Below are positions 541 to 36,810 of a stretch of DNA of 37,126 bases, one piece after another (the stretch's first letter is position 1; every line of letters starts with the position of its first letter). Source of the DNA: a virus (taxonomy: Duplodnaviria > Caudoviricetes); the IMG/VR virus record IMGVR_UViG_3300014201_000017, positions 1-37,126 of that record; one strand, written 5' to 3'. Below the pieces are notes generated by a model. The model was not told the origin of the DNA. It did no database searches and saw only the letters and a list, made by a program, of their open reading frames with translations. Position numbers and translations under genes: made by a program.

Positions 541-787
541 CCATCCCCAGAATATCGACTTTAATATCGCGCTTCAGATAATTCAAAGCATCAATAGCTC
601 CCATACTGTAAACTTGCTCAACAGAATTATGGGGTATTTTTTTTAACGTTTCTTTTTCATCAAAAATTAAATCGTCAATCATGTCGATTACTGTCTGAAT
701 GTCACTATCACGCTTTGTGTTTATCTGAGTCATATTGTACAAAACCTTCTCCACCACACCAACAGCACAATGACATGTCACCGCCAT
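524..787 (-). CDS. Hypothetical protein; real start possibly ATG 682 (MIDDLIFDEK...), just downstream of site A
   Basis: ORF track; its 3' end is duplicated at the window end. Confidence 0.5.
   Translation of the reverse strand: MAVTCHCAVGVVEKVLYNMTQINTKRDSDIQTVIDMIDDLIFDEKETLKKIPHNSVEQVYSMGAIDALNYLKRDIKVDILGMGDDGE
534..636. repeat. 103-bp exact direct repeat, copy 1 (copy 2 = 37024-37126)
   Basis: Base-for-base identity TCATCACCCATCCCCAG...GAATTATGGGGTA. Confidence 0.97.
688..716 (-). repeat. Putative recombination site A (L arm intact, R arm degenerate)
   Basis: Minus strand AAAGCGTGATAG-tgacat-TCAGACAGTAA; the L arm contains the TGA stop of ORF 708..776. Confidence 0.55.
708..776 (-). 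CDS. Micro-ORF or fragment with a CxxCxGxG motif (MSLCCWCGGEGFVQYDSDKHKA)
   Basis: 3' part of track ORF 708..902, whose 5' part overlaps the tRNA; ends KA-TGA-TAG inside site A. Confidence 0.35.
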   Translation of the reverse strand: MSLCCWCGGEGFVQYDSDKHKA

Positions 788-819
788 CTATATCTTCAAC
801 TTTAATGTTAATAAAAACC

Positions 820-891
820 TGCCAGCAGACAGGAATCGAACCTGCGTCTCCCACGCTGCGGGTGGGACTCTGCCATTGAGTTACTGCTGGC
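820..891 (-). tRNA. tRNA-Cys(GCA)-like gene, atypical (possible pseudo-tRNA)
   Basis: Acceptor (G)CCAGCAG/CTGCTGG(C), D stem ACTC/GAGT, anticodon arm CCCAC-CCGCAGC-GTGGG, T arm GCAGG-TTCGATT-CCTGT; C at position 33; no encoded CCA. Confidence 0.75.
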
Positions 892-948
892 GTAAAAATC
901 ATGCAATATCACATGCCTCTTTGCATTTGTCGCATCTGGGGCAGATTG

Positions 949-1173
949 TCATTCGGCCTCCGGTGGCAACGGCATAGACATCCAGTGTGTTATACGCGGA
1001 TAATCTAACCTGAATTGATCATCATTTTCATGTATAAAAATACATGTATCGACTTCTGATCCATTATAGGCAATAACACTTTTTCCGAAAGGTGGAATTC
1101 TCTCACTACATTTCTGCCAGCCATCTTTGGACGGGAATTCTATGCCGGATTCTGTGCATGTTACAGTGGTCAT
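949..1173 (-). CDS. DUF551-family phage protein
   Basis: WQKCSERIP...ITHWMSMPLPP signature. Confidence 0.85.
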   Translation of the reverse strand: MTTVTCTESGIEFPSKDGWQKCSERIPPFGKSVIAYNGSEVDTCIFIHENDDQFRLDYPRITHWMSMPLPPEAE

Positions 1174-1174
1174 T

Positions 1175-1249
1175 TCATCTCTCCATCATCCCTTCATATT
1201 TACCCCGGAAAACCAACACTCTTTGATATTCTTTTGGTAATTTATCCTC
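1175..1249 (-). pseudogene. 5'-truncated DUF551-like remnant (EDKLPKEYQRVLVFRGKYEGMMER)
   Basis: EDKLP...RVLV resembles the DUF551 N-terminal motif; no start codon; begins exactly at the outer edge of site B. Confidence 0.55.
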
Positions 1250-1273
1250 AAGCGCGATAGGTTATTTTTTGTC
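1250..1273 (+). repeat. Putative recombination site B
   Basis: AAGCGCGATAG-gttatt-TTTTGTC; 23/24 identical to 2639-2662. Confidence 0.7.
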
Positions 1274-1577
1274 AATTAGTCCAAATTACCTCTTTTGAGG
1301 TTCCGGTAGTTGATCTTGCATGACATAAGCCATCAAAAGGCATCCAGCAAGCACCTTTGTTTTCACAAACTATTATCTGACCTTTCCTAAAATAACAAAA
1401 ATTTGCAAGATTTTTGTAATCTAAATCATTAAATTTATAATGTCTTCCTGCTTCTTCATAGGGCGGATCAATAAACCATGTTGCCTCTTTATTTTCAATT
1501 TCTTCATAATTTTTATTATATATTTTCCAAATGTCTTTTAAATCATCAATTTTCATTTTATCAATATCTAAGTTCAT
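1272..1577 (-). pseudogene. C-terminal half of an N6-adenine DNA methyltransferase (Dam/D12-like)
   Basis: WFIDPPY catalytic motif and GQIIVCEN; no SAM-binding motif I; ATG 1577 has a GGAG RBS. Confidence 0.7.
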
Positions 1578-1599
1578 AAATTCTCCAAAAACCACATTC

Positions 1600-1631
1600 A
1601 AAAAGCGCGATAGGTGTCACTATCAGTCATT
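1600..1631 (+). repeat. Putative recombination site C (complete)
   Basis: AAAGCGCGATAG-gtgtca-CTATCAGTCATT; GATAG/CTATC inverted core around a 6-bp spacer. Confidence 0.75.
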
Positions 1632-1641
1632 GAATAATATT

Positions 1642-1785
1642 TTACCCGGACCCGTCCCCGGACCCGGACCCGGACCCGTACCCGGACCCGTACCCGTACC
1701 CGGACCCGTACCCGTACCCGGACCCGTCCCCGTCCCCGGACCCGTACCCGGACCCGTACCCGGAAGCCTTTTTTATTCTTCCCAT
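1642..1785 (-). CDS. 47-aa Gly-X repeat microprotein (MGRIKKASGYGSGYGSGDGDGSGYGYG...)
   Basis: ATG 1785 overlaps the end of the upstream gene; GGG codons alternate with TAC/TCC/GAC; TAA at 1642-1644; missed by the ORF track. Confidence 0.8.
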   Translation of the reverse strand: MGRIKKASGYGSGYGSGDGDGSGYGYGSGYGYGSGYGSGSGSGDGSG

Positions 1786-2138
1786 ACAGGCACCTTTGCT
1801 ATTGATTTTCGGGCTACTTCAGTGCAATCCAGAATCTCAACTGCTTCCAGTAATTCCACTTGATCAACTTCGCATGGAAACTTGCATGTGCCGGGTTTTT
1901 TTACGCCCTCCATCGCAAGCTGGGATAATGATGCAGCACCATCCCAATACCATAATCTTCTGGCTTTATGCAGAACGACTTCACGTCCATTTCGTGACTG
2001 GATTTCACCAGCAAACACACCTGCAGAATAAGTGCGCACGATGACATATCGTCCGTTTTCCTTTTTTTCCATATTTTCATTTCCTGAAAACATCTGCAGC
2101 AGTTTGCATATGTCCTTCAGTTTCATTTCGTCTAGCAT
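1773..2138 (-). CDS. Conserved phage protein (DUF6948-like, Sm/SH3-like), typical partner of Gly-repeat ORFs
   Basis: YVIVRTYSAGVFAG...ARRLWYWDGAASLSQLAMEG motif. Confidence 0.8.
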   Translation of the reverse strand: MLDEMKLKDICKLLQMFSGNENMEKKENGRYVIVRTYSAGVFAGEIQSRNGREVVLHKARRLWYWDGAASLSQLAMEGVKKPGTCKFPCEVDQVELLEAVEILDCTEVARKSIAKVPVWEE

Positions 2139-2166
2139 ATTTCTTCTCCCGTTGTTTTAAATATTT

Positions 2167-2424
2167 TCATCCACAAAAAAACAAAGCTCCAAATAACGCA
2201 AAATACACGGATTCAAAAGCAGTCATCTGTCTTTTCCCTTCTCGTTTTGTTGTCTCAAATGTTTTATTTCCAGCATAAAAATAATATCCATGATAAAATT
2301 TTGTTCCATCAAAAATATAACAACACAGATAAGTACCGTTACTGTCCGGCATCCGCTCGCTGCATTTCTGCCAGCCGTCTTTGGACGGGAATTCGATGCC
2401 GCTGTGTTCGCAGGTCAGTTTCAT
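2167..2424 (-). CDS. DUF551-like protein with a replaced, hydrophobic C-terminus
   Basis: N-terminus SGIEFPSKDGWQKCSER is identical to that of 949..1173; lacks THWM; ends VYFALFGALFFCG. Confidence 0.65.
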   Translation of the reverse strand: MKLTCEHSGIEFPSKDGWQKCSERMPDSNGTYLCCYIFDGTKFYHGYYFYAGNKTFETTKREGKRQMTAFESVYFALFGALFFCG

Positions 2425-2426
2425 TT

Positions 2427-2612
2427 TTATCCTATCATCTTCAAAAAAGATTCCAGCATCTCTCGCGGTATCCTGATTGTGATGCCTTCGTCCGATCCAT
2501 ATATCTCGCCTACAATCACATCCTCGTTTCCCAGATACTTCAGGTATTTTTTTAAGGTGCCATTTTCGTATTGGTATTCGAATTCCACGAAATAGGATAC
2601 TGGGTCAGACAT
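2427..2612 (-). CDS. Hypothetical protein
   Basis: GGAG RBS plus ATG directly after site D. Confidence 0.65.
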   Translation of the reverse strand: MSDPVSYFVEFEYQYENGTLKKYLKYLGNEDVIVGEIYGSDEGITIRIPREMLESFLKMIG

Positions 2613-2635
2613 TATATTTACTCCGAAATATGATT

Positions 2636-2662
2636 AAAAAGCGCGACAGGTTATTTTTTGTC
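2636..2662 (+). repeat. Putative recombination site D
   Basis: AAAAAGCGCGACAG-gttatt-TTTTGTC; the spacer contains the TAA stop of the upstream minus-strand ORF. Confidence 0.7.
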
Positions 2663-2908
2663 CTTCCAATCTCCGAACGATATTCTATTCTCATCTTCTT
2701 CAAAATAAAGCACCTTGATACTTCTTCTTGATAGATTAAAATGTCCACATATTCTGACAGCCTGATCGTATGTTTTGTATCCAATCTGTCGTGGTTTGTA
2801 ATTGTGTGGAAATTTAACCACATAAATCAGCATTACTTCCCCACCATATGTAAAAGACACATCATACTGACTCCTGAAAATGCTGTTATAAACCCCAGAG
2901 AAGCACAT
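2651..2908 (-). CDS. Hypothetical protein (likely start at the internal MLIYVVKF)
   Basis: ORF track; the stop codon lies in site D. Confidence 0.5.
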   Translation of the reverse strand: MCFSGVYNSIFRSQYDVSFTYGGEVMLIYVVKFPHNYKPRQIGYKTYDQAVRICGHFNLSRRSIKVLYFEEDENRISFGDWKDKK

Positions 2909-2942
2909 ACTATATTTTTAAATGTTTGGTCATCAGACATCA

Positions 2943-3368
2943 TCATTCAGGCTCCTTCCCATTCCGCCAGTTTATGTCAGGCTCGACAGATATGTTATTA
3001 ACTATTTTTTGTTCTCCGCGCTCATGTTTTTCAAGATCTACTAATCTAGCCAGTATCGGATTCAGCGCCTCGTACAGGTCGGACATGGAGACGCCGGATT
3101 TATCATCAAGTGCATCAAGCCTTATTGTATTCTTCTCAAACATCTTCTCCCATGTATTTGATAATGGCCGCCACATATCATTGAGTTCATCGACTCTTTC
3201 TTGACAGTCAGTGATTACGCCTTCATGGTCTGCCAGAATCTTTTCGGCAGCATGCATGCGCCTCTCGAGTTCAGTCAGACTTACAGTATGCGATGTATCA
3301 GGGCGCACACTTTTACCGCACCAACATCTCGGCATGTGACAATCAGTCATAATGATTTTCCGATTCAA
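2943..3368 (-). CDS. Hypothetical coiled-coil protein
   Basis: ORF track; heptad-like composition. Confidence 0.6.
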   Translation of the reverse strand: MNRKIIMTDCHMPRCWCGKSVRPDTSHTVSLTELERRMHAAEKILADHEGVITDCQERVDELNDMWRPLSNTWEKMFEKNTIRLDALDDKSGVSMSDLYEALNPILARLVDLEKHERGEQKIVNNISVEPDINWRNGKEPE

Positions 3369-3491
3369 GAGTTATATGAATACCGTTATTTGCCAAACGA
3401 CTAAAATCCTTTGCTATTTCTGCTATGTGAGCAGTCAGGATCAGCATGATCAGCAGAAGTATTGTCTTTAATGTTGCGTCAATAACATCCA

Positions 3492-3626
3492 TTATATTTC
3501 CCCTCTTTCCGCTTTCAATATCCTGACCGTCGCAATACATTCATGCAGCTGTCTTAATGCGGCATTTATATCATGCTTTTCAAGGCTTTTGTCAATTTCA
3601 ACAAGAGATTCAATTAAAAAATCCAT
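3492..3626 (-). CDS. 44-aa hypothetical protein (MDFLIESLVEIDKSLEK...)
   Basis: Hand-translated; its stop overlaps the next ATG. Confidence 0.4.
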   Translation of the reverse strand: MDFLIESLVEIDKSLEKHDINAALRQLHECIATVRILKAERGEI

Positions 3627-3636
3627 AAAGAAAGGA

Positions 3637-3822
3637 TCATTCTTTATCTTTTCGGGTTCCATTTTTGCTTCTCCTTCTCCGGACTTTTGTTATTGATTCT
3701 GAATAAATGACGTATTGAATCCCCACCATCTTTCCCTTCAGCAAGCCCTGTCTGATCAGCCGTCTGATCTGAGATTTGGAAAGCCCGGTCTTCTCAGAAA
3801 CATCTTTTACGCTCATCAGCAT
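3637..3822 (-). CDS. Excisionase-like / MerR-type helix-turn-helix DNA-binding protein
   Basis: MSVKDVSEKTGLSKSQIRRLIRQGLLKG..VG..YVI pattern. Confidence 0.85.
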   Translation of the reverse strand: MLMSVKDVSEKTGLSKSQIRRLIRQGLLKGKMVGIQYVIYSESITKVRRRRSKNGTRKDKE

Positions 3823-3894
3823 TTGTTGATTCCTGCGTGTTATATGTTTATACTTGGCCTGTTTATCTCCCTTGAGATAGATGGTTCAGACACT

Positions 3895-3927
3895 AGCCGC
3901 CCTCCCAACGGGGCGGCTTCTTTGTTT
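3895..3927. terminator. GC-rich hairpin, possible intrinsic terminator (U-tract on the + strand)
   Basis: AGCCGCCC-tcccaacg-GGGCGGCT followed by TCTTTGTTT. Confidence 0.6.
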
Positions 3928-4075
3928 ATGATACTTCCCATAAATGTTCAGGATCTGGGATAAAAACCATTGATTCAGCCTGACCTTCCGTCCATGCATT
4001 AAGAACCCAGCCGCCGATTACTTTTGCTCTGCAAGTGGTTTCTCCGATTTTTTCCCAGTCAAATTTTATTCTCAT
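3926..4075 (-). CDS. 49-aa phage microprotein (MRIKFDWEKIGETTCRAKVIGGWVL...SMVFIPDPEHLW)
   Basis: Hand-translated; coupled to the upstream stop; RAKV.GGW...FIPD pattern seen in small phage proteins. Confidence 0.7.
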   Translation of the reverse strand: MRIKFDWEKIGETTCRAKVIGGWVLNAWTEGQAESMVFIPDPEHLWEVS

Positions 4076-4077
4076 TA

Positions 4078-4932
4078 TTATCTTAACTCCGTTGTTTGTA
4101 CTTCTACCTGATGGCTCAATCTTGGCTTGGCTTTCTCTGCCAGCAGGGCATTGACATGATCTGATGCGCTCACATTTTCTTCTTTCTGAATCTGAAACAC
4201 ATCATCGACTGAAATCATTTTATCTTTGATTGCTGTACCGACTCCAATCAACGATCTAAGGTCATCTGCTGTAATATCATTAAGCGTTGGACGCTCATAA
4301 TATTCCAGAATCATTTCTTTATCGATCCCCATTTTTGCCAGTTTGTCGAATACTTCTTTTACTTTCACGAGCAATGAAGATGATTTTGTATCGCCAACGG
4401 AAGCCACCATGGCCTTTTCATATATACGGTTTACCAAAGCCTTCGGAATAACCTTGAAGATAGCGTTGCGTAAAGCCTTGGCGCTGGCAGCATTGCTCAG
4501 CATTGTCTGCATATCAGCATTTGCTGTATAACCACCCTTACCGCCTTTCTGTCCGAATATAATACTAACTTTATTCTGCATTGCGATCTTGACATTTTTC
4601 TCTAGATCCCAGCAAACGCCTTCTGCTGTAATATGTCGACCATCATTTTCAACAATTCTGGTGGCGGCGTGAATATTTCCCCAGCTTGAAATCATTATCT
4701 CTGCCAATCGTATTGATGGCCCTTTGATTTCAATCTTGACTCCATCCTTGTCTTTGCGAGGAAGAACATAAAAACAGCTTTGTGCAGTTTCTTCATCTAT
4801 TGTTGCAAGGACTTCAGCTTCAGAAATTGCCTGTTTAACATCTCTGGGATAAGCCTTGGCGGTTGAAATCATCACATCAATCTCTGCACGTGCAATCATG
4901 CCATTATCTTGAATCATCAATTCCTGAGTCAT
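4078..4932 (-). CDS. Putative single-strand annealing / recombination protein
   Basis: Adjacent to a RecE-like exonuclease; AKAYPRD...GPSIRLAE...WGN...ALRNAI pattern; function inferred from synteny. Confidence 0.6.
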   Translation of the reverse strand: MTQELMIQDNGMIARAEIDVMISTAKAYPRDVKQAISEAEVLATIDEETAQSCFYVLPRKDKDGVKIEIKGPSIRLAEIMISSWGNIHAATRIVENDGRHITAEGVCWDLEKNVKIAMQNKVSIIFGQKGGKGGYTANADMQTMLSNAASAKALRNAIFKVIPKALVNRIYEKAMVASVGDTKSSSLLVKVKEVFDKLAKMGIDKEMILEYYERPTLNDITADDLRSLIGVGTAIKDKMISVDDVFQIQKEENVSASDHVNALLAEKAKPRLSHQVEVQTTELR

Positions 4933-4986
4933 TTTGTTTCCTCGTTAATAGGTTTAATCCGCACCTTTATTGAACCTGTAGCATAC

Positions 4987-5099
4987 TGGTGGCAATCGAC
5001 CGGACTTCAACCGGATAATTTGCGAGAAACCCCTCTCCTTTTATCTCGCGTCAGGAGTCGCTTCTAGGGTGCGGCACTGCTCCGCCGCCCGCGATTGCC
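4987..5099 (-). ncRNA. 113-nt tRNA-like RNA with an 8-bp acceptor stem, T arm and encoded ACCA, but no canonical D or anticodon arms
   Basis: GGCAATCG.../...CGATTGCC-ACCA; CCGG-TTGAAGT-CCGG; internal hairpins GCGGC/GCCGC and GCGAGA/TCTCGC. Confidence 0.7.
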
Positions 5100-5104
5100 A
5101 TAAA

Positions 5105-5914
5105 CTATAAATTCACCGCCCAATTAGGAAGCCCAAGTGTCTGGGTTTCATGTCCGGGCCATATATCCGTTTCATAACAATTTTTCATTTCAGCCAGAAC
5201 CCTTCTTAAAGTGCTATGCGCGGATTCGAGCGCAGTTTCGTCAAGTATATATACGGCAACGAGAAAAGGAAAGGTTTTTTCGACACAAACAAACACGTGG
5301 TTTATGATGTCGTTTCCAGTGGCCGCCCTGATACCTTCCCGATTAAATGCCGCCTGCAAATGATAGCCATGAGCGACCATGGCATTCTGGAAAGTCCGAG
5401 GATCTGCACTGCTTATAGTCTTTAGATCGACAGTCATATTGGCATGCCAGCAATCCGGGCGAGTCTTGAGTCCTAAACCTGTATCTTGATCATTCCAGAA
5501 TATCGAATTCTCATATCGAGCATTTGATATTAATTCCCACGCCTGAGAATGTTTATAAACGCTTTGTTGCATGGCTAATAACGTATCAAACTGATTTTTT
5601 GTAATCATGGTTTTTCCATGATGTGTTTCCTGAAAAATTTGATAGGTTTCCTTTCCTGCTTTAGTCCTTCTATCAATTTCAGGAATAATTGCATATTCCT
5701 TGTCAAATTTATCTGGCTCCAGGACAATGGTATGAAAAGCTGATCCAAAAGCCATTGCGTCTGTGGTTATTTTCTCAGGTGCTTTTGGATTATGATAAGC
5801 ATTCCAGTAATGTGCTGGAGACTTCATAAATTCTACAATCCCGGATCGGCTTGTTGATCCTTTATGATTATGATAATCATCATTTGACATATTTTCGTAA
5901 ACTATAGCGCCCAT
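5105..5914 (-). CDS. RecE/exonuclease VIII-like PD-(D/E)XK nuclease (DUF3799-like)
   Basis: GSAFHTIVLEP, YENSIFW, KTRPD, VDLKT, YHLQAA motifs. Confidence 0.9.
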   Translation of the reverse strand: MGAIVYENMSNDDYHNHKGSTSRSGIVEFMKSPAHYWNAYHNPKAPEKITTDAMAFGSAFHTIVLEPDKFDKEYAIIPEIDRRTKAGKETYQIFQETHHGKTMITKNQFDTLLAMQQSVYKHSQAWELISNARYENSIFWNDQDTGLGLKTRPDCWHANMTVDLKTISSADPRTFQNAMVAHGYHLQAAFNREGIRAATGNDIINHVFVCVEKTFPFLVAVYILDETALESAHSTLRRVLAEMKNCYETDIWPGHETQTLGLPNWAVNL

Positions 5915-5924
5915 AACTTAGTTC

Positions 5925-6740
5925 CTAATCATTTAATATTCTTTTGATAAGATAATGCGGCAATAATACTTGAATTCCATCAATTATCATTAATATACCT
6001 TCTCCGTGAGGGTCTTTTGCAAACAAGTAATCTTTATTCATGAAAGTTAAAATATGCCATATCGTCCCGTCAGATGTTTGTGGGATTGAGGGTTCTGCTA
6101 TATCTTTCTTGATTTCTTCTTGAATCTTCTCTATATGATCATCAAGATTTTTTTGCCTAAGTTTTTGTGCTTCTTCTGCTTCTCTATCCTGTATTTTCTG
6201 CGCTAATAGTTTTAACTCAACCGCCTTTGCTTCCTGTTGTCTTGCAATTTCTGCTTGCTCGGCGCGTTGGGCATCAAGACGCGCTTGTTCCTCTTTTCTG
6301 ATTGCATCAAGCCTGGCTTGTTCTGCTTTTCGTGCTTCCTCCTCAATTCTGAGTTTTTCTTTACGATCTGCTTCAGCTTTTTCAAATTCAGCGCGTTTAA
6401 TTGCTTCAATTTCATTTAAATAATCTTTTTCCAATGTTTCTAAATATTTCTCGGTAGGCACTAACATATCGGTTAAGCGTTTTGCTTCCGCATTAATGCT
6501 GCGCTGCCATTTTAACGCATCTTCGTTTAATTCTTTGCGCTTTTTATCAATATTAACCCGATAATTTTTCATTTCTAAACGTGCAGTGCGCACCAATCTA
6601 TACCCTTCTTTATCATCAATTCCTTTAATTGTCAGATTGCCAAACTTTACTGATAATTGAGCAATTTCAGAATCAACAACGTTAAATTTAACTAATTGTG
6701 ATTTAATAAAACTATCTTCCATTATCCAATCCTCCGCCAT
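5925..6740 (-). CDS. Coiled-coil recombination-module protein (DUF1351-like)
   Basis: IDKKRKEL...INAEAKRL motif, long E/A/R-rich helix, position upstream of the exonuclease. Confidence 0.65.
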   Translation of the reverse strand: MAEDWIMEDSFIKSQLVKFNVVDSEIAQLSVKFGNLTIKGIDDKEGYRLVRTARLEMKNYRVNIDKKRKELNEDALKWQRSINAEAKRLTDMLVPTEKYLETLEKDYLNEIEAIKRAEFEKAEADRKEKLRIEEEARKAEQARLDAIRKEEQARLDAQRAEQAEIARQQEAKAVELKLLAQKIQDREAEEAQKLRQKNLDDHIEKIQEEIKKDIAEPSIPQTSDGTIWHILTFMNKDYLFAKDPHGEGILMIIDGIQVLLPHYLIKRILND

Positions 6741-6826
6741 GGTATATCTTTCCCGTGTTTACAGTAATGACAATAATGATCCGCGCTGATGGCTCCACAT
6801 TTTGGACATCGAAATTGAACCGGCAT
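6722..6826 (-). CDS. 34-aa zinc-ribbon microprotein (MPVQFRCPKCGAISADHYCHYCKHG...)
   Basis: Hand-translated; CPKC...CHYC; TAATG coupling at both ends. Confidence 0.55.
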   Translation of the reverse strand: MPVQFRCPKCGAISADHYCHYCKHGKDIPWRRIG

Positions 6827-6987
6827 TATATAGTTACCTTCTCAATAGTCCTGAATTTTTCACCCTCTTTTTTCCTCATGTCGTATCGCCTGCTCTGGAT
6901 TGCATTTTCAAGAACGCTCAGTTCAAGATAATCAAGAATATTTATAAGACCGGTGATTTGTTCTATTACTTCAATAGGGGTAGTCAT
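6826..6987 (-). CDS. 53-aa microprotein, paralog 1
   Basis: MTTPIEVIEQITGLINILDYLELSVLENAIQSRRYDMRKKEGEKFRTIEKVTI; homologous to 7858..8019. Confidence 0.85.
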   Translation of the reverse strand: MTTPIEVIEQITGLINILDYLELSVLENAIQSRRYDMRKKEGEKFRTIEKVTI

Positions 6988-7232
6988 TTTAATTCCTCAA
7001 GTTTGCTGATAACTTCTCTCAGATCAATAATTTCTTCTTCATATGCTTTCCACTTCTCGTAGTACCAGTCAGCGCAGTTAAGACATTGCTTCAATCTTGC
7101 GTTAAGTTTTTCGATAGTGCCTTCAGGAGACTTACTCATACCAGGGTCTTCGTTGCTCTTGTTCGATGTCTCTGCATCTTTGCATGTCGTCTTGTTCCCG
7201 CAAATCATCTTCACCAGTCGCGTCATCTTCAT
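6984..7232 (-). CDS. Hypothetical protein
   Basis: GGAGG RBS; ATGA coupling to the next gene. Confidence 0.65.
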   Translation of the reverse strand: MKMTRLVKMICGNKTTCKDAETSNKSNEDPGMSKSPEGTIEKLNARLKQCLNCADWYYEKWKAYEEEIIDLREVISKLEELK

Positions 7233-7250
7233 AGTCCTCCCGGAAATCTC

Positions 7251-7478
7251 TCATTTTTTAATCCTCTTGTTTGTAAACCTGATGATATGGCCTCGCTGGA
7301 ATTCCCCTATCAGCCCTATCACGCTTATCAGTGTCCTGCCATCATTGACGCATCGCACCAAAAACCATGGGCCATGCTCGGAGATTTTCACTCTTGTGCC
7401 TGCCCGGAACGACTTGCCGAATTTCCTCATTCTCGTTCCCCCCATGGACACCAACAGTGGCAATTTTCTCCACCACAA
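7251..7478 (-). CDS. Hypothetical protein (likely start MRKFGKSF at ~7430)
   Basis: ORF track. Confidence 0.5.
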   Translation of the reverse strand: MWWRKLPLLVSMGGTRMRKFGKSFRAGTRVKISEHGPWFLVRCVNDGRTLISVIGLIGEFQRGHIIRFTNKRIKK

Positions 7479-8574: not shown

Positions 8575-8582
8575 TCATTAAA

Positions 8583-29211: not shown

Positions 29212-29279
29212 TGTATTAATCCTCAACAGTAAGGATTTAACTGTGCCATATATAGACAGCAAAGTAAAGGGGATTATTA

Positions 29280-31745
29280 ATGGCTAACCTGGATTCGCGC
29301 TTTATTTGTACAAGTGACCTCGATTCCCTCTACAGGGACAACGCCTCTGGCTTGCCCCTATCCGGCGGTATAATCACATTCTACTCAGACGTAAACAGAA
29401 CCACGCTAAAACCCGTCTATCAGCTCACTGGCACCCCCGGCAACTATACCTATTCCCCGTTGCCCAATCCCTGCGTATTGTCCAGCGCAGGCACGTTTCA
29501 GGACGCTTTGGGCAACAATATAGTCCCTTACTATTACCCGTTCACCGGCACCCCTTCAGCCAATACCGGTGTACAGGAACTGTACTATATAACCTGTGTA
29601 AACTCAGGTTTCGCTCCCCAGTTTGTGCGCCAGGGATGGCCCCAAGCCGCAGGAAGCGGCGTCTCACCTGTAAGCGATAACGAGGTTGAAAACTACATTC
29701 CAAATGGCCAGTTTCTGGCCCATAACAATATTCTCTCAATTACAGAGCCGCCAATTGTTCAATACACATTTGGTGCCCAGACGGTAGATGCCCAGCAGAT
29801 CGCCCAGGGTGGCTGGTATTTCGTTTATACAGACGCCAATTCGGCTGTATTCAACAACAGTTTCCAGCAGATCCCATCTTCTGGCGGCTGGGGGATGAAC
29901 AGCTTCCCGAGGTACATATTCAATTTTGTCTGTAGTTCGTTTAATGCCAGTGCATTGACAAGAGATCTGCGTATCCAGTGGCCGGATGTGAACAAGTTTT
30001 CATCAGGCAATCCAGTGGGCGAGACAAATTTCACCCTGTTTTTTGATGCCAAGAGTAATGACGGCAATTCATATACTTTCACCCTCGAACAGATTTATTA
30101 CTTTGGGACAGGTGGCACTCCGAGTGCGCCGGTTGTTACTCCCATCACCACATTTACAGTAGGCCCCTCTGAAAGTTTTGTTTCATACAATCTTCAGGAC
30201 ATAACCTTTCCATCCAATGCCGGAACCATAGGCACAAATGGAGATGATTATGTAGCCCTCTCTATTCGTGGGCCTGCGAGCGCATGGAACGCTGCCTTCA
30301 GTGATTTTGCCTTGGTTCAGGGAAATGAGACACTTTCATCTTTTCCCATCCAGACAAACGCCGAAATGCTCAGCCGCGCTTTGGCTGGCTGGATACCGAC
30401 TCCAAATCCAAATGGTTCCAGTCTATATTTGACCCTAAAACTGGGTCTGGAAGGATTCATCTATGATTCTTCGGAAGTAGGCGAGATAGTTGCGAAATCC
30501 ACACTAATTGACTTCAATAATACAAGTATAAGTACAATCTCCAATGAACTGTATTGTGATGGCTCCCAGTATTTGACAGCAGGTTATTCTCCATTAGGAA
30601 TTCCATATTCACGGTTGCAGGCAAAACTTGTTTATGCCGCAAGCAGCCTGAATCTTCCAATTTATGGAACAGGATTAAATTTTGCCTCAGCTCTGGGAAA
30701 CAATGATGCAGATCATATATTATTGATGAATAACAAATATGGATCTGGAGCCAATGCAACTGATGGAACAGTAATGACTGGATTCACATTTAACAACAAT
30801 CATGCAGATCCTGGTGCAACTGTAAATGTTACAGCTTATATGCAAACAGTTGTGACAGGAGTAATGAAAGGCATTATTACAGCAATGGCTGATACTGGAA
30901 CTACCGGCATAACATTTGTAGAAGGTAGAACGGGATTAATTAACAATTACAATATATGGCAATTCAATACCACTTCTGTAACAATTTCAGGCCTCGCGAG
31001 TACATATTTTACTTATACAGCAAATGCCACCAATTATTATGTCTGGTTTAAATACAATGGATCAGGAACTGATCCTGCCCCTGGGGGCACTGGAATCCAG
31101 ATCGATTTATTTACAGGCTATTCAACTCAGGATCTATGCAGATTGATAGTATTCGCATTAAATGGCGGATCAATGACTGATGTGATATGTACCGCAGGCA
31201 GTTCAATTACAGCAAATTCATGGTTTAAATTTACAACAGCAAATGGAAATAAATATTATGTCTGGTATAACCTTGGTGGTGGTGTTGATCCAGCGCCGGC
31301 AGGATTTACCTTGGGAATACCAGTTTCCATTACCGGAACTTCAACAGCAGCCCAGGTAACTGCTGCTACCATTTCAGCAATAAATGGTACTTATTTTGCG
31401 GTGCCCGATTTGCGTGGGCTATATCTGCGAGGCTACGATCCAAATTCAACCTGGGATATTGATTCTGTCAGTCGCTATGGCCTGAACGGTAATGCTCTTG
31501 GAAATGTAATAGGAACATTGGAAACGGATATGTTCTTGACTCATCTTCATGGGGCTGGAACATTAACAGCAGCACCTGCATCAGGTAATTTTGTTACAAC
31601 TTCAGGATCAAGTATCGGAACAACATCTGGAGTAGGTCTTAACACTACTCTTGGAACTGCTGCTGTTTCTGGAAGCACAGCATTGACTGGTGGATATGAA
31701 ACAACTCCCGTAAACATGGCGATCGGTTACGCAATAAAATATTAA
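29280..31745 (+). CDS. Tail fibre/spike protein with a split tail-collar domain
   Basis: GLPLSGG.ITFY head-binding-like N-terminus; VGEI...LYCDGSQY and VPDLRGLYLRG collar motifs; ETTPVNMAIGYAIKY terminus. Confidence 0.85.
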   Translation: MANLDSRFICTSDLDSLYRDNASGLPLSGGIITFYSDVNRTTLKPVYQLTGTPGNYTYSPLPNPCVLSSAGTFQDALGNNIVPYYYPFTGTPSANTGVQELYYITCVNSGFAPQFVRQGWPQAAGSGVSPVSDNEVENYIPNGQFLAHNNILSITEPPIVQYTFGAQTVDAQQIAQGGWYFVYTDANSAVFNNSFQQIPSSGGWGMNSFPRYIFNFVCSSFNASALTRDLRIQWPDVNKFSSGNPVGETNFTLFFDAKSNDGNSYTFTLEQIYYFGTGGTPSAPVVTPITTFTVGPSESFVSYNLQDITFPSNAGTIGTNGDDYVALSIRGPASAWNAAFSDFALVQGNETLSSFPIQTNAEMLSRALAGWIPTPNPNGSSLYLTLKLGLEGFIYDSSEVGEIVAKSTLIDFNNTSISTISNELYCDGSQYLTAGYSPLGIPYSRLQAKLVYAASSLNLPIYGTGLNFASALGNNDADHILLMNNKYGSGANATDGTVMTGFTFNNNHADPGATVNVTAYMQTVVTGVMKGIITAMADTGTTGITFVEGRTGLINNYNIWQFNTTSVTISGLASTYFTYTANATNYYVWFKYNGSGTDPAPGGTGIQIDLFTGYSTQDLCRLIVFALNGGSMTDVICTAGSSITANSWFKFTTANGNKYYVWYNLGGGVDPAPAGFTLGIPVSITGTSTAAQVTAATISAINGTYFAVPDLRGLYLRGYDPNSTWDIDSVSRYGLNGNALGNVIGTLETDMFLTHLHGAGTLTAAPASGNFVTTSGSSIGTTSGVGLNTTLGTAAVSGSTALTGGYETTPVNMAIGYAIKY

Positions 31746-31755
31746 AGGAATCAAA

Positions 31756-32367
31756 ATGGGATTCAATCCGGAATATTTTTTTCCAACAGTAATCACAAAC
31801 ATCACGAGGCTGAATGGTGGTGTTTTTGGTACCGTGAAAGCGACAGATGTTTACCCTGCCGTGGATGTGACAGATGTATCGCAATCTCCTTATGGAACCA
31901 CTAAGCCATATGAGATTGTCCAGTTATTGAATTTTGTTTTGAGCAGTATGGGCTGGATTATTTATCAACCTGTGCTGGCTGGAAGTCCAGCCAATCTGAA
32001 TGCAACTTACAATAATGGTATCGCAGGCGTAGGCGCATCCTTGACAAATGCAGGCACACAAGCCGCTCTTGTGCTGGATGGACAAACTGCAATAGTTGGA
32101 GGAAGATATTTAATCAACAACCAGACAACAGCTGCACAAAATGGTATTTATACTGTTTTGACAACAGCAAATCTGGGAAGTGCTACAACAAACTGGGTAT
32201 TGACGAGAGTGGTTGATTTCAATAGTTCGTCAAATATCCTGAATAATGGTTTGGTATATGTCCTGTACGGAAGTACATACGCAAATCAGATACAGCAGGA
32301 TACATTTTCAGGTTCCATTACAGTAGGAACAACAGCGATAAATTATGCTCAATGGACATTTACTTAA
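31756..32367 (+). CDS. Tail-fibre-associated structural protein
   Basis: LDG...GGRYLINNQTTAAQNGIYTV...WVLTR motif. Confidence 0.75.
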   Translation: MGFNPEYFFPTVITNITRLNGGVFGTVKATDVYPAVDVTDVSQSPYGTTKPYEIVQLLNFVLSSMGWIIYQPVLAGSPANLNATYNNGIAGVGASLTNAGTQAALVLDGQTAIVGGRYLINNQTTAAQNGIYTVLTTANLGSATTNWVLTRVVDFNSSSNILNNGLVYVLYGSTYANQIQQDTFSGSITVGTTAINYAQWTFT

Positions 32368-32380
32368 AGGATAAAACAGA

Positions 32381-32761
32381 ATGGCTACTCTTTTCTCAAT
32401 GACTCGTGATGTTGCCGGCTATAACGGATTTGGTCTTAAACCAACGGATACGGCATATTCAGTTACTTTATCTGCTAACACAGACACTCATTTTGTAGTG
32501 CCTTCCATGAGCGCAATAGGCGGCACTAATACAGCAATTAATAATAATCCTGTTCTTATAGCAATTTTTTACTTTACTCCCGGCGCAGAAGTCTGGTGTG
32601 CTTTAAATGCAACTGCTATTGTTCCGGCAGGAGACACATGGGGAGCTACAACATCCGAAGGAAATCCTTCTGCGTGGCAGGTTAACGGAGGAGATGCGAT
32701 TCATGTAATTACAGCTGCAACGGGCGTGAGCGTAGGCATAAGATTATATGTTATTAGTTGA
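32381..32761 (+). CDS. Putative structural protein
   Basis: Beta-rich; in the tail operon. Confidence 0.65.
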   Translation: MATLFSMTRDVAGYNGFGLKPTDTAYSVTLSANTDTHFVVPSMSAIGGTNTAINNNPVLIAIFYFTPGAEVWCALNATAIVPAGDTWGATTSEGNPSAWQVNGGDAIHVITAATGVSVGIRLYVIS

Positions 32762-32778
32762 CGTAAAAGGATTTTTAA

Positions 32779-32964
32779 ATGCCATGGCCAAGACTTAAAG
32801 ATTTCGGAATAGTAGATAATCCATTAATCTACTCTCCATTTGAAGAAAACAATGCGCCTGATAGCGGTGGTGGCCCTCCTGCATTTAATGATTTCCTGCT
32901 TCTTAATTCTTTTCCCTTTTTGTTGCTTAATGGAAATAATCTAACCTTGCTGGGAGCTGTCTGA
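32779..32964 (+). CDS. Small tail-operon protein
   Basis: AAGGA RBS; FLLLNS.PFLLLNG repeat. Confidence 0.6.
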   Translation: MPWPRLKDFGIVDNPLIYSPFEENNAPDSGGGPPAFNDFLLLNSFPFLLLNGNNLTLLGAV

Positions 32965-32965
32965 C

Positions 32966-34510
32966 ATGTCAGGAGAAAATATCAATCAAGTTTATATTGC
33001 CAATCCCATTACATCGAACACATCAACTGATTTGATGTATTTTGGACAGTCACCTTATGGATCAGGCAATGATGCGGCGATGACTTATGCCAATTTTGCT
33101 GCACAATTTGGCGCTCCATACACCCCCGCAGCCTTGACAGAAGTGAGTGATACCAATGTCACGTTGACCCTCGGCGGTACTCCGTCCACAGCTCTGTTAC
33201 ATGCGGCCAGCATTACTGCGGGCTGGACAGGCACCTTGTCAGGCACGCGGGGGGGTACAGGCGTAAACAATGGCGCCAGCACCATAACAATCGGTGGCAA
33301 TTTTGCCATGTCTGGCGCATACACTTTTACGGGAACACTCACTGCAACCACTGCTGTCACCTTTCCTACCAGCGGGACGCTTGCAACGACTTCCCAGCTT
33401 CCAACACCAGCAGCCCTTACTGAAGCCAATGATACAAATGTAACCCTTACCCTCGGCGGTACACCTGCAACTTCTTTGTTGCAGGCCGTGAGTATTACCG
33501 CTGGATGGTCTGGGCAGCTTTCGCTCGCTCGCGGTGGTACCAATGCAAATTTGACTGCATCAAACGGTGGCATATTTTATTCAACTGCCAGTGCAGGAGC
33601 TATTCTTGCTGGTACAGCTACGGCAGGTCAATTACTGACTTCTGGCGCTTCCACTACGCCTGCATGGACAACCAGCACCTATCCGGCAACCAACGCTGCA
33701 AATACCCTGTTATATGCTTCCAGTGCCAATACCATGGCAGCACTTGCCACAGCAAACAGTTCTGTACTGGTAACCAGCGCAGGAGGTGTTCCCAGCCTTT
33801 CAACGACGTTGCCAAATATTGCCATTGGGACACCAACTTCGGGCACCCTGACAAACTGTACTGGTCTGCCTATCGCAGGAACCACGGGCTATGGCACAGG
33901 TGTGGCAACTGCTCTGGCTGATAATGTTGGATCAGCAGGCGCTTTTGTGATAAATGGTGGCGCGCTTGGAACACCATCATCCGGAACAATGACAAATGTT
34001 AGCGGGACAGCTTCCAGTTTGACTGCAGGCCAGGCATCTGCGTTGGTTGGCAATACCCCTTCGTATTTATCTGCATCAACCATCGGTCATGCTGTAGGAG
34101 GATCATCAACAAATTATCAGATGGGCGCTCCATCCATACCTTTGACGCAAGGAACATGGCGAGTAAAAATGACGCCTGTGATGAATTTTGGCGCGTCAAG
34201 TGCCGGTTGTTTTGTTGATTATTTGAGCGGATTTTTCGCCGCAGATGGTGCCAACAATGGCACAGCTCCTACTGCAATTTCTGCGACAACGACAGGGCCA
34301 ATTACATACAATGCCTTGTCTAGCGGAGGCACATACAATCCAATGCCAAGTCAGTCAGCGACAGGTAATTACATGGTGTTTCCTCTCGAATGCTACATAA
34401 CGGTTGCCAGCGGAACACAAACTGTTTATGGGGTTCTTTCTGTGGGATGGGTAACTTCAACTGGGCTTTTATGGGGCTGTTTTCTTGAGGCGTACAAGGT
34501 TTCCAATTAA
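32966..34510 (+). CDS. Tail fibre protein
   Basis: RGGTG/RGGTN and LGTPSSGT.TN fibre motifs; duplicated TPAALTE..DTNVTLTLGGTP unit. Confidence 0.8.
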   Translation: MSGENINQVYIANPITSNTSTDLMYFGQSPYGSGNDAAMTYANFAAQFGAPYTPAALTEVSDTNVTLTLGGTPSTALLHAASITAGWTGTLSGTRGGTGVNNGASTITIGGNFAMSGAYTFTGTLTATTAVTFPTSGTLATTSQLPTPAALTEANDTNVTLTLGGTPATSLLQAVSITAGWSGQLSLARGGTNANLTASNGGIFYSTASAGAILAGTATAGQLLTSGASTTPAWTTSTYPATNAANTLLYASSANTMAALATANSSVLVTSAGGVPSLSTTLPNIAIGTPTSGTLTNCTGLPIAGTTGYGTGVATALADNVGSAGAFVINGGALGTPSSGTMTNVSGTASSLTAGQASALVGNTPSYLSASTIGHAVGGSSTNYQMGAPSIPLTQGTWRVKMTPVMNFGASSAGCFVDYLSGFFAADGANNGTAPTAISATTTGPITYNALSSGGTYNPMPSQSATGNYMVFPLECYITVASGTQTVYGVLSVGWVTSTGLLWGCFLEAYKVSN

Positions 34511-34545
34511 TAATTCCAGACCGCGACTGGATTCTCACAAATGCA

Positions 34546-35313
34546 TTGCTGGCGAGTGATGTCTACAACAATGACATTGCCCCTGCCGAGCAACTGAAGG
34601 GCTGGACGAGATTTTATTGCCCCAGTGAGCCTTACCCTTCTGGATACTTTGGGGCCGCTTATGTGGACTCTGTTGCGAAGCCTTCGAAGGCTATCGTTGC
34701 GCATCGTGGTACAAAGAGCGTGCAGGATCTTGTCGAGGATATCAGTATTCTTGCGGATATGCCGTTTGAGCAGTTAAATGATGCTGTCGATTTTTCACGA
34801 GAAGTTAGAGACATATTGCCTGCTGGAATTGAAATTTCTCACACTGGTCACTCTCTGGGAGCGGTCATTGCAGAAATCATGTCAATGTCATTACTTTTCT
34901 CGCTCGAAAGTATTACATTTGAAAATCCAGGTTCGCTTGAGATATTCGGCAAGTGGAATAAAAAGATTAACCTTGACCCCAAAATACCCATCAAGACTTG
35001 CAGCACCATTATCCAGTCCCGCGTCAACATGATCAACACATGCAATACTCAGGCTGGATCGGTGTATTACCTCAAGGACAAGAAACTTGGTTTGGGCGCT
35101 CACTGGGGGCGTCATCCAGAGTCTTATCTTGAGAATCCCTTCTACATGACCGCAAATACACTTGAGCAGCATCCTATTGCCGGGATGCTGGCATATCTGG
35201 AATCAGGTGGCATTATTGCCGCTGTTGAGGACTGGCCTGCTGGCTTTGAGGCTGGCTATAAAATGTTCCTGGCTGATCTGAACACTGGACAATCAGAGGC
35301 CGAGTGTCCATGA
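34546..35313 (+). CDS. Alpha/beta-hydrolase, class-3 lipase-like
   Basis: IVAHRGT, TGHSLGA nucleophile elbow, TFENPG; frame open upstream to 34489. Confidence 0.85.
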   Translation: MLASDVYNNDIAPAEQLKGWTRFYCPSEPYPSGYFGAAYVDSVAKPSKAIVAHRGTKSVQDLVEDISILADMPFEQLNDAVDFSREVRDILPAGIEISHTGHSLGAVIAEIMSMSLLFSLESITFENPGSLEIFGKWNKKINLDPKIPIKTCSTIIQSRVNMINTCNTQAGSVYYLKDKKLGLGAHWGRHPESYLENPFYMTANTLEQHPIAGMLAYLESGGIIAAVEDWPAGFEAGYKMFLADLNTGQSEAECP

Positions 35314-35427
35314 ATCTCAGAAAATCTGATCCATGCTCAGCAAAGACAATAATGACAACAATCGCCTGAAGTATTATGACAAAAGCATTTTTCAGTTTTT
35401 TGATCATTTATTTATGCCCTGGAAAAG

Positions 35428-35465
35428 AACGCCTGATTCGGTGATATTGAAACAGGCGTTTTTCT
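35428..35465. terminator. Bidirectional terminator-like hairpin near the convergence of the two arms
   Basis: AAAAG-AACGCCTG-N17-CAGGCGTT-TTTC. Confidence 0.6.
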
Positions 35466-35671
35466 TATTTCAGGAGAGATACTTCAGCAGCCTGTAATCC
35501 CTTTTTACCCTGTTCGACCTTGAATTCTACATGGTCACCTTCGGCAAGAGATTTATATCCACTTCCCATTATTGCCTTGAAATGAACAAATACATCTTCT
35601 CTGTCCTGCCGGGAGATAAAACCATATCCCCTGCTGTTGTTAAACCATTTAACAATTCCTTTCTCTTTCAT
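35465..35671 (-). CDS. csp: Cold-shock domain protein (CspA family)
   Basis: GIVKWFN..RGYGFI (RNP1), DVFVHF (RNP2), GYKSL.EG..VEF...QG.KGLQA. Confidence 0.96.
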   Translation of the reverse strand: MKEKGIVKWFNNSRGYGFISRQDREDVFVHFKAIMGSGYKSLAEGDHVEFKVEQGKKGLQAAEVSLLK

Positions 35672-35709
35672 TTTGATATTCCCTGTGTCTGATTAATACA
35701 CAGATTATC

Positions 35710-35919
35710 TTAAATCAAAGCTCTCGTGAGGTCTTTAAAAACTTTTGCGGTCTTGCCCATCATGCATAGATTATACGGAGAAAGGTCTCCATATGCGGGA
35801 TTTTTAGTCAAATACCATTGATATGCTTTATCCTTGTCTCCATCGAATACTTCTCTGGCTTTTTCTATGACATCTGAGAGAGTTTTTACCGTGTAAGTCT
35901 TTCTTTGCTGCTTGACCAT
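35710..35919 (-). CDS. Orphan MbcA/ParS/Xre antitoxin C-terminal-domain-like protein (DUF2384)
   Basis: AREVFDGDKDKAYQWY..KNPAYG..SP..L pattern. Confidence 0.75.
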   Translation of the reverse strand: MVKQQRKTYTVKTLSDVIEKAREVFDGDKDKAYQWYLTKNPAYGDLSPYNLCMMGKTAKVFKDLTRALI

Positions 35920-35941
35920 TCTGTATACCTTCTGTTTCCTG

Positions 35942-36241
35942 TTACCTTTTCAGACATGAAATTATTGCTTTGAAACATCCCGAACAGCCATCATCTGTAT
36001 GCTGCTCAATCTTTACATTAACATTTGTGACCTGTTTAATTCCTTTATGATGATGCTTTACCCGATGGAAAAATCCATTTTTGTCACTGCTTGCCTCTGA
36101 TCTGTGATAATGTTTACCATCAAGTGAATCACTTTCTTCCTTGATATCATCTCCATCGCTTTCTGTTATCGGTATCTGATCTGATTTCATATCGAGTCCC
36201 TCCGTGTATGTTTCAATAACACTGTGAATTCGATAAACCAT
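35942..36241 (-). CDS. Hypothetical protein (likely start MKSDQ at 36190) with a Cys-rich C-terminus
   Basis: GGAGG RBS before 36190; ends DDGCSGCFKAIISCLKR. Confidence 0.6.
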   Translation of the reverse strand: MVYRIHSVIETYTEGLDMKSDQIPITESDGDDIKEESDSLDGKHYHRSEASSDKNGFFHRVKHHHKGIKQVTNVNVKIEQHTDDGCSGCFKAIISCLKR

Positions 36242-36261
36242 CCCTGAAACCCTACAGTATT

Positions 36262-36498
36262 TTATTTGATATTGGTTCTTGATATATTATATTCATTCCG
36301 TTTCCTGATTAAAGCCTTCTGCAGATACTTCCCCGCATCTTCCCTGACATATTTCCCGGATGGGAAAAATCTCCACTCTGACCAGAGCTGCTGGTATGTC
36401 ATGTTATCTATGGTTTGGCGGGTTTGTTTATTGGGTTTCATTTTTTTCCTCAATAATTTTCTGATCTGCGGGTGTTCCAAAAAATATTCATTATTCAT
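36262..36498 (-). CDS. Hypothetical protein
   Basis: AGGA RBS after site E; IDNMTYQQL...WRFFPSG motif. Confidence 0.65.
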   Translation of the reverse strand: MNNEYFLEHPQIRKLLRKKMKPNKQTRQTIDNMTYQQLWSEWRFFPSGKYVREDAGKYLQKALIRKRNEYNISRTNIK

Positions 36499-36520
36499 AA
36501 GTTATCCTGAAAAGAATCCC

Positions 36521-36552
36521 AAAAAGCGTGATAGGTTCTACTTATCCGTTCA
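36521..36552 (+). repeat. Putative recombination site E
   Basis: AAAAAGCGTGATAG-gttcta-CTTATCCGTTCA; abuts the stop of 36542..36739. Confidence 0.7.
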
Positions 36553-36739
36553 CTGTATAAACATTATCAATCGTGAAGTCACTGCCAAGAACCCTGATTT
36601 TTATTCTTGTTTGATCATGATATTCAATAATAAGGTCAGTTGACGGACAGTTAAATTTCTCACAGACTCTTTTGCATTCTTCTTCTATGATGGAAGCATG
36701 TTTTCTGGCAATATCATTACAAATATCTTCTATGTTCAT
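36542..36739 (-). CDS. Hypothetical protein flanked by sites E and F
   Basis: AAGGA RBS; ORF track. Confidence 0.7.
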   Translation of the reverse strand: MNIEDICNDIARKHASIIEEECKRVCEKFNCPSTDLIIEYHDQTRIKIRVLGSDFTIDNVYTVNG

Positions 36740-36780
36740 TACCGATCCTTACCGTTATTTGCCGATTCTATGGGCTTTCA

Positions 36781-36810
36781 AATGACTGATAGGTTCTACT
36801 ATTACGCTTT
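36781..36810 (-). repeat. Putative recombination site F (complete, inverted relative to C and E)
   Basis: Minus strand AAAGCGTAATAG-tagaac-CTATCAGTCATT; R arm 12/12 identical to site C. Confidence 0.75.

What the first reader, a model, noticed from the sequence alone, without database searches (positions are those of the whole stretch)
688..36810. Family of dif-like arm/6-bp/arm sites at gene ends: candidate cassette-shuffling system in the phage accessory region
Seen: six related sites. C (1602-1631, +) is AAAGCGCGATAG-gtgtca-CTATCAGTCATT. F (36781-36810, -) is AAAGCGTAATAG-tagaac-CTATCAGTCATT. E (36523+) is AAAGCGTGATAG-gttcta. A (716-, minus strand) is AAAGCGTGATAG-tgacat. B (1250+) is AAGCGCGATAG-gttatt. 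D (2638+) is AAAGCGCGACAG-gttatt. After circularisation all six fall within ~2.8 kb, and I saw no full site in the structural arm. Each lies at a gene 3' end; five overlap or abut the stop codon, and two genes end KA-stop-TAG inside the arm. Spacers come in pairs on the + strand: E/F GTTCTA, A/C RTGTCA, B/D GTTATT. Established: two ~11-12-bp arms with an inverted inner core around a 6-bp asymmetric spacer is the architecture of tyrosine-recombinase sites (dif/pdif), and pdif modules are flanked by oppositely oriented sites. Inference: accessory microgenes move as modules between these sites. No recombinase is encoded in the window, so it would be a host or helper enzyme. The arms do not match E. 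coli dif well (only B's right arm TTTTGTCAATT is 8/11 to the XerD arm), so the specificity may be new. Alternatives: operators of a DNA-binding protein such as the HTH at 3637..3822, or boxA-like RNA signals (CGCTTTTT).
Basis: partly seen in the sequence, partly recalled or inferred. Interest (0 to 1): 0.85.

Follow-up and report, generated by a model that had tools for sequence, protein, structure and literature searches.

The report
Phage array of XerL dif mimics
This integrase-less phage carries two full and four one-armed copies of the chromosome-terminus site found beside the xerL recombinase gene in Coxiella-like bacteria, and likely borrows that host enzyme to integrate and possibly to gain or lose small one-gene cassettes.

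Summary
The six sites are real, but only C and F are two-armed; A, B, D and E have one arm plus a spacer. The arms are not XerC/D arms. They match a site in eight uncultured gammaproteobacterial genomes (C and F: 23 of 24 arm bases to the best one). All eight encode XerL, six within about 7 kb of the site. In both single-contig chromosomes tested, GC skew and KOPS flip at the site. So the motif is a variant (inner GATAG, not GATTA) of the Legionellales dif/XerL site, which phage LME-1 is known to hijack. Six related phage records carry one full site at the same position; the five searched lack an integrase. The new part is the extra direct-repeat half-sites bounding one-gene modules: a three-site array in one relative and a filled/empty pair with the crossover in arm+GT. 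Against XerL-driven shuffling: most paired spacers differ, no prophage, excised circle or host with a matching spacer was found, and ordinary phage recombination on 13-16-nt repeats could give the same junctions. Verdict: XerL dif mimic about 0.9; XerL-driven cassette traffic about 0.5.

The parts
1602..1631 (+). Site C: full dif(XerL) mimic, 12-bp arm / GTGTCA / 12-bp arm
   Evidence: 23 of 24 arm bases identical to the chromosomal site of G055, spacer 0 of 6 in that orientation
36781..36810 (-). Site F: full dif(XerL) mimic, spacer GTTCTA on + strand; probable attP, as it sits where relatives have their single site
   Evidence: 23 of 24 arm bases to G055, spacer 3 of 6; homologues of ORFs 35710 and 35942 lie left of the single site in G001 and G004
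36523..36552 (+). Site E: one-armed site, arm identical to the bacterial arm, same spacer as F
   Evidence: 14-nt exact direct repeat with F seen in the sequence
36542..36739 (-). 65-aa ORF, sole cargo of the 258-bp E-F module; stop codon inside E
   Evidence: no Pfam or PHROG hit
1249..1278 (+). Site B: one-armed site, arm + GTTATT + TTTTGTC; same 13-mer follows the arm in D and in two relatives
1272..1601 (-). 109-aa ORF, sole cargo of the 353-bp B-C module; weak match to DNA methyltransferase PHROGs
2638..2667 (+). Site D: one-armed site, 23 of 24 nt identical to B
687..716 (-). Site A: one-armed site (arm 705-716, spacer 5 of 6 to C), inside ORF 524-787
820..891 (-). tRNA-Cys(GCA)-like gene between A and B; makes ORF 708-902 doubtful
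7316..7327 (-). Seventh arm outside the cluster, no partner arm at 6 bp; role unknown
3637..3822 (-). Excisionase-like HTH protein; homologue found only in G001 among the site-bearing relatives tested
4078..5914 (-). Exonuclease VIII-like gene (5105-5914) and neighbour of unknown family (4078-4932; annealing protein by position only): basis of the homologous-recombination rival
   Evidence: exonuclease 40% identical to an LME-1 protein
37024..37126 (.). Exact copy of 534-636 at the contig end; closure of the genome uncertain

Best explanation
The six sites are two full and four one-armed copies of the terminus site that lies beside xerL in Coxiella-like bacteria, so this integrase-less phage likely integrates with the host's XerL recombinase, and small one-gene circles likely entered its genome at that site by the same enzyme. 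Shown: the sequence match, the linkage of the bacterial site to xerL, its position at the replication terminus, the lack of a detectable integrase, and junctions at the sites in relatives. Inferred step 1 (about 0.9): XerL binds these arms. Inferred step 2 (about 0.7): one full site, most likely F, serves as attP, as for LME-1. Inferred step 3 (about 0.5): a circle carrying one good arm plus a GT-starting spacer recombines with the full site at the spacer's left edge. This leaves a half-site on the left and regenerates the full site on the right, giving [half-site]-gene-[full site], seen as E-F and B-C here, once in G005 and twice in tandem in G002. Where spacers match (E/F; B/D; A/C 5 of 6) a normal two-exchange reaction would do. 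Where only GT matches, one strand exchange resolved by replication or a phage resolvase (RusA and endonuclease VII are encoded) would be needed; that part is speculation.
For: Bacterial match: an exact-pattern scan of 185,579 genomes gave 19 loci, 5 of them Coxiellaceae or uncultured Gammaproteobacteria, intergenic, one exact match per genome. All 5 encode a ~405-aa tyrosine recombinase, 56-71% identical among themselves; one is 57.5% identical to the C. burnetii plasmid enzyme, and they share the C-terminal motif of L. pneumophila XerL in Table S3 of PMC9765430. Three more genomes (G260, G283, G439) have the site 1.5 kb, about 10 bp and about 60 bp from xerL; in all, 6 of 8 have it within about 7 kb. 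In G260 and G283 GC skew and KOPS change sign in the interval holding the site. The published LME-1 arm and the QpH1 site upstream of xerL have the same build with inner GATTA. No PF00589 hit in the window or 5 relatives, three of them with terminal repeats, against 14 of 14 control genomes. Each relative has one full site among the distal early genes. G005 versus G003: 96% identical over 11.6 kb, differing by a 250-bp insert whose crossover lies in a 16-nt repeat of arm+GT. G002: three direct sites with one gene between each. One-armed dif-like attP sites are described for Vibrio and Pseudoalteromonas IMEX phages (PMC12715192, passages).
Against: No phage spacer equals any of 8 bacterial spacers (best 3 of 6 for C, 4 of 6 for F), whereas LME-1's att is identical to its host's dif over 22 bp. 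No prophage: 0 of 400 gammaproteobacterial genomes hold the early-gene family, and no repressor was identified. The host is inferred from the site alone; the cold-shock protein gave no support. G005, B-C and G002 junctions pair non-identical spacers, while experimentally seen pdif rearrangements involved identical or near-identical spacers (PMC13141974, passages). G003 and G005 also have a breakpoint about 45 nt left of the site at a start codon, so site-independent mosaicism operates right there. Three of six relatives (G003, G004, G484) show no clear extra site. No joints or circles were seen in three runs, but these are contigs only. The loose core pattern does not separate xerL-positive from xerL-negative genomes (17 of 68 vs 12 of 68, P=0.40); the stricter 10 of 68 vs 0 of 68 (P=0.0014) was chosen after seeing the data. 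The skew test on G053 contig C1 was inconclusive.
Confidence: 0.55

Rival explanations
1. One site is an ordinary XerL attP (LME-1-like IMEX). The second full site and the half-sites are inert scars copied and shuffled by phage-encoded homologous or microhomology recombination between intergenic regions of co-infecting relatives.
For: Crossovers lie in 13-16-nt exact repeats, enough for Red-like recombination (general knowledge). The phage encodes an exonuclease VIII-like protein. A breakpoint 45 nt away is not at the site. Spacers mismatch in most pairs, and second arms score near random. Other repeated intergenic and gene-start segments exist in the same region.
Against: Geometry is constant: half-site left, full site right, in 4 phages. 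The 13-mer after the arm is identical in 4 modules with unrelated genes and is outside the called ORF, wholly or mostly, in 3 of them. E/F share the full spacer, and that spacer occurs in single full sites of G002 and L169.
Confidence: 0.33
2. The sites bind XerL but do not integrate the phage. They serve to resolve phage genome multimers during replication or to titrate host XerL.
For: No prophage found, no repressor found, phage spacers differ from all bacterial spacers seen yet pair with each other. Plasmid-borne XerL/dif pairs exist (PMC9765430).
Against: Lambda-like layout with an excisionase-like gene; the single site in relatives sits among the distal early genes near the end of the late operon, about where attP lies in lambdoid phages; the true host is simply not sampled.
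Confidence: 0.07
3. The motif is an operator for the phage HTH protein or an RNA signal (terminator or boxA-like).
For: Sites lie between genes of one operon; the same palindrome type occurs as probable terminators in unrelated genomes; the G001 site could fold with a G-U pair followed by a U run.
Against: The HTH has no detected homologue in G002, G003 or G004, which all carry the site. None of the six window sites folds better than shuffles (z from -1.6 to +1.8), and none of the four in 1-4200 is called as a terminator. Neither idea explains the copy at the bacterial terminus beside xerL.
Confidence: 0.05

Closest known systems
dif/XerL of Legionellales and its IMEX phage LME-1 (Nicholson, Deecker, Ensminger 2022, PMC9765430)
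   Same: About 30-bp site with near-palindromic arms and a 6-bp centre, at the terminus, served by a single ~405-aa XerL; short-tailed phage carrying a dif mimic; shared exonuclease VIII-like gene.
   Different: Inner arm bases are GATAG/CTATC, not GATTA/TAATC. xerL is usually next to dif in these hosts (over 400 kb apart in L. pneumophila). LME-1 has one mimic, identical to host dif; this phage has two full and four half sites, and no spacer matches a sampled host.
pdif / dif modules of Acinetobacter plasmids (PMC9455709, PMC13141974)
   Same: Several dif-like sites bound accessory genes; spacers occur in matching pairs; host Xer is the presumed enzyme; single-module differences between relatives.
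   Different: Phage, not plasmid; XerL, not XerC/D (arms match XerC at 2-6 of 11 and XerD at 1-8 of 11); most sites are one-armed; no alternation of inversely oriented complete sites.
Vibrio IMEX arrays (CTX, TLC, dif-type DJR phages; PMC12715192, PMC9226527)
   Same: Integrase-less elements with full or one-armed dif mimics; tandem insertion regenerates one complete site.
   Different: There the array builds on the chromosome from replicating elements. Here it builds inside a tailed phage genome from 200-350-bp single-gene units with no replication functions. No XafT-like activator was identified.
Integron cassette arrays (recalled, not tested against a paper)
   Same: One small gene per unit, all in one orientation, site at the gene's 3' end, only 2-3 bases shared at the crossover.
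   Different: No IntI, no attC hairpin, and the site is a dif mimic.

Membership tests
dif/XerL site | About 30 bp, inverted arms around a 6-bp centre, similar to the published sites | tested here: met
   C and F; G283 arm differs from the published LME-1 arm only at the two innermost bases
dif/XerL site | Bacterial counterpart is intergenic and lies at the GC-skew terminus | tested here: met
   2 of 2 single-contig chromosomes, sampled at 20 stretches each; G053 contig inconclusive
dif/XerL site | Genomes with the site encode XerL | tested here: met
   8 of 8; one looser match, G091, had no xerL with this query
dif/XerL site | XerL catalyses recombination at the site | not testable with these tools
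   needs an assay
IMEX (LME-1 type) | Carries a dif mimic and encodes no integrase | tested here: met
   0 of 6 records with PF00589; no recombinase family among 59 window ORFs
IMEX (LME-1 type) | Found integrated at host dif | tested here: inconclusive
   0 of 400 sampled genomes hold the early-gene family; true host not sampled
IMEX (LME-1 type) | attP centre matches host dif centre | tested here: inconclusive
   No match to 8 sampled bacterial spacers; host unknown
pdif dif module | XerC and XerD arms | tested here: not met
pdif dif module | Module bounded by two complete, inversely oriented sites; C and D modules alternate | tested here: not met
   4 of 6 sites one-armed; spacers all direct
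pdif dif module | Modules vary between relatives with junctions at the sites | tested here: met
   One filled/empty pair, G005 vs G003; crossover cannot be placed more finely than 16 nt
Integron cassette array | IntI integrase and attC hairpin sites | tested here: not met

The most novel reading that the evidence does not exclude
Tailed phages of Coxiella-like bacteria use their dif mimic as an integron-like platform: host XerL captures and stacks single-gene (and tRNA-like) circles at the phage's own attP, needing one arm and only a GT dinucleotide of spacer identity.
Probability: 0.35. Interest if true: 0.85.

Novelty: new variant of a known kind. Interest (0 to 1): 0.6.

Why it matters
If XerL does move these modules, dif-module shuffling would extend from Acinetobacter plasmids to tailed phage genomes and to a single-recombinase Xer system, giving a site-specific route to phage mosaicism. 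Even on the conservative reading, the work identifies the dif variant of several uncultured xerL-bearing gammaproteobacteria, adds a family of integrase-less podoviruses as candidate IMEXs beyond LME-1, and shows that a dif mimic can point to a phage's host group. The E-F and B-C modules give small, direct substrates to test spacer and arm requirements of XerL.

Tried and rejected
XerC/D specificity: rejected; B's 8 of 11 XerD match is not shared by the other sites. RNA hairpin or terminator: not supported. Capsid-defined relatives: 47 records searched whole gave matches near control level, exact ones only in records already found by the pattern; 156 capsid and early-gene loci (2.10 Mb, partial genomes) held 1 full site, G001 itself. 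So the site does not follow capsid or early-gene lineage. Pattern hits set aside: 8 of 14 loci, 15 of 21 (mostly perfect palindromes in unrelated phages) and 35 of 41 (low arm scores); most of the 68 metagenome hits and 14 of 19 genome hits were not followed up. B-type searches found only already known records. Reads: only assembled contigs of three wetland runs; no joints; X1 may be the window's source. Prophage search, host hints from the cold-shock and lipase genes and repressor search led nowhere. No gene family shared by all site-bearing genomes suggested an activator. A 40-bp blastn of a bacterial site against plasmids gave only weak hits. Order-level searches around G055 and G260 held 2 genomes each. 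Earlier scan notes: nothing. G332 was not scored.
Full report
Context. The window is a 37,126-bp virus record, estimated 96% complete. It has a P22-like portal, terminase, lysozyme, RusA, endonuclease VII, an O-like replication gene, an exonuclease VIII-like gene and an excisionase-like HTH, but no recombinase family among 59 ORFs scanned. Small early genes run on the minus strand from about 8.9 kb down to 1 and from 37.0 kb down to 35.5 kb.

Observation. Only C and F have two arms: a matrix built from 12 bacterial sites scores 2 full sites in the window against 0.03 expected (most of those bacterial sites were themselves found with phage-derived patterns). A, B, D and E are an arm plus a spacer. 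Stops fall inside five sites and 11 nt from C, but the ORF ending in A overlaps a tRNA-Cys gene and A lies inside ORF 524-787. The contig end repeats 534-636, so closure is uncertain.

What the site is. A scan of genome contigs gave 19 loci; 5 were Coxiellaceae or uncultured Gammaproteobacteria, each with one exact intergenic match (G056 has a second two-armed site). A paper search found the single-recombinase dif/XerL system of Legionellales, discovered through phage LME-1 (PMC9765430; I read parts 1-5 of 7 and two supplement look-ups; the site alignments are figures I could not see). All 5 genomes encode an XerL orthologue. A search with that protein found it in 68 of 300 sampled genomes of the class. 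In two single-contig chromosomes from that list the site lies 1.5 kb from (G260) and about 10 bp from (G283) xerL, and GC skew and KOPS polarity flip in the interval that holds it. G439 has it about 60 bp from xerL. The published LME-1 att (PMC5071653, passages) and the site upstream of xerL on QpH1 have the same build with inner GATTA/TAATC; ours have GATAG/CTATC. C and F match the G055 arms at 23 of 24 positions. Against: a loose core pattern is not enriched in xerL-positive genomes (17 of 68 vs 12 of 68; the second count includes G126, an unpublished genome), and the stricter 10 of 68 vs 0 of 68 is post hoc. The G053 skew test was inconclusive. I conclude that the motif is a dif(XerL) variant.

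Related phages. Pattern scans of viral contigs gave six related records: G001-G005 and G484 (L009 duplicates G003), plus two metagenome fragments. Each has one full site among the distal early genes. None of the 5 searched has PF00589 (G005 was not searched). Extra one-armed sites occur in G001 (1), G002 (2) and G005 (1), and none is clear in G003, G004 or G484. G002 reads site-gene-site-gene-full site, all direct, with 200- and 227-bp units. G005 and G003 are 96% identical over 11.6 kb and 100% identical right of the site; G005 has a 250-bp insert bounded by a B-type half-site and the full site, and the crossover lies within a 16-nt repeat of arm plus GT. The window's E-F (258 bp) and B-C (353 bp) have the same geometry. 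The spacer of E and F occurs in the single full sites of G002 and L169, and that of C in G003. LME-1 has only one mimic.

Mechanism. Most likely one full site is attP for host XerL, as in LME-1, and small circles with one arm entered at it, each time leaving a half-site on the left and a full site on the right. One-armed dif-like attP sites are described in other IMEX phages (PMC12715192, passages), and XafT relaxes arm requirements for XerCD (PMC9226527, passages). The weak point is the spacer: pdif rearrangements seen experimentally involved equal or near-equal spacers (PMC13141974, passages), yet G005, B-C and G002 junctions share only GT or GTT. Phage homologous recombination on 13-16-nt repeats gives the same junctions, and a site-independent breakpoint lies 45 nt left of the G003/G005 site. 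No prophage (0 of 400 genomes), no matching host spacer (0 of 8), no repressor and no circle were found; read data were contigs only. The HTH-operator and RNA-signal readings are unlikely.

Comparison and novelty. It works like LME-1 (met: mimic, no integrase; open: integration) and resembles pdif modules (PMC9455709, passages) without meeting their definition. Six paper searches listed no report of GATAG-type XerL sites or of several dif mimics bounding accessory genes in a tailed phage; a third paper using the term XerL only searched plasmids for it (PMC11472951, passages), and PMC12407071 (passages) describes LME-1 particles. Most subscription papers and all figures are outside this library. 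Integron features and the repeat lengths usable by Red-like systems are recalled. Verdict: new variant of a known kind; XerL dif mimic about 0.9, integration about 0.7, XerL-driven cassette traffic about 0.5; interest 0.6.

Noticed in passing
window 37024-37126 and 534-636: The contig's last 103 bases copy an internal stretch. Either two strain variants differ downstream of ORF 524-787, or the end is a mis-join. Gene order in G003 (an MMMPEN-starting gene next to the 524-787 homologue) fits the 37023-to-534 join; Logan contigs support 533-to-534.
   Followed up: partly
window 820-891 (-); L015 4877-4953 (+): Atypical tRNA-like genes lie next to the sites: tRNA-Cys(GCA) here and a tRNA-Ser(GCT) call with a short variable arm as cargo of the G005 insert (ARAGORN only; below Rfam's threshold).
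   Followed up: partly
window 34546-35313 (+): Tle-like phospholipase / lipase class 3 gene at the end of the late operon.
   Followed up: partly
window 35465-35919 (-): Cold-shock protein and an Xre/MbcA/ParS-like antitoxin fragment at the end of the early operon.
   Followed up: no
window 1642-1785 (-): Short ORF made of GSGYG-type repeats just right of site C.
   Followed up: no
G056:C10:42434-42458 and C17:14321: One host genome has two two-armed sites on different contigs, and a second, distant recombinase gene next to its xerL.
   Followed up: no
L242 7344 (Legionella plasmid): A site with one GATAG-type and one TTATC-type arm lies about 110 bp downstream of a plasmid xerL homologue.
   Followed up: no
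one search hit list: XerL-like recombinases at 40-45% identity are common on Pseudomonas and Burkholderia plasmids (412 records).
   Followed up: no
window 7289-7327: A seventh arm with a second CTATCAG core 9 bp away, outside the cluster.
   Followed up: no
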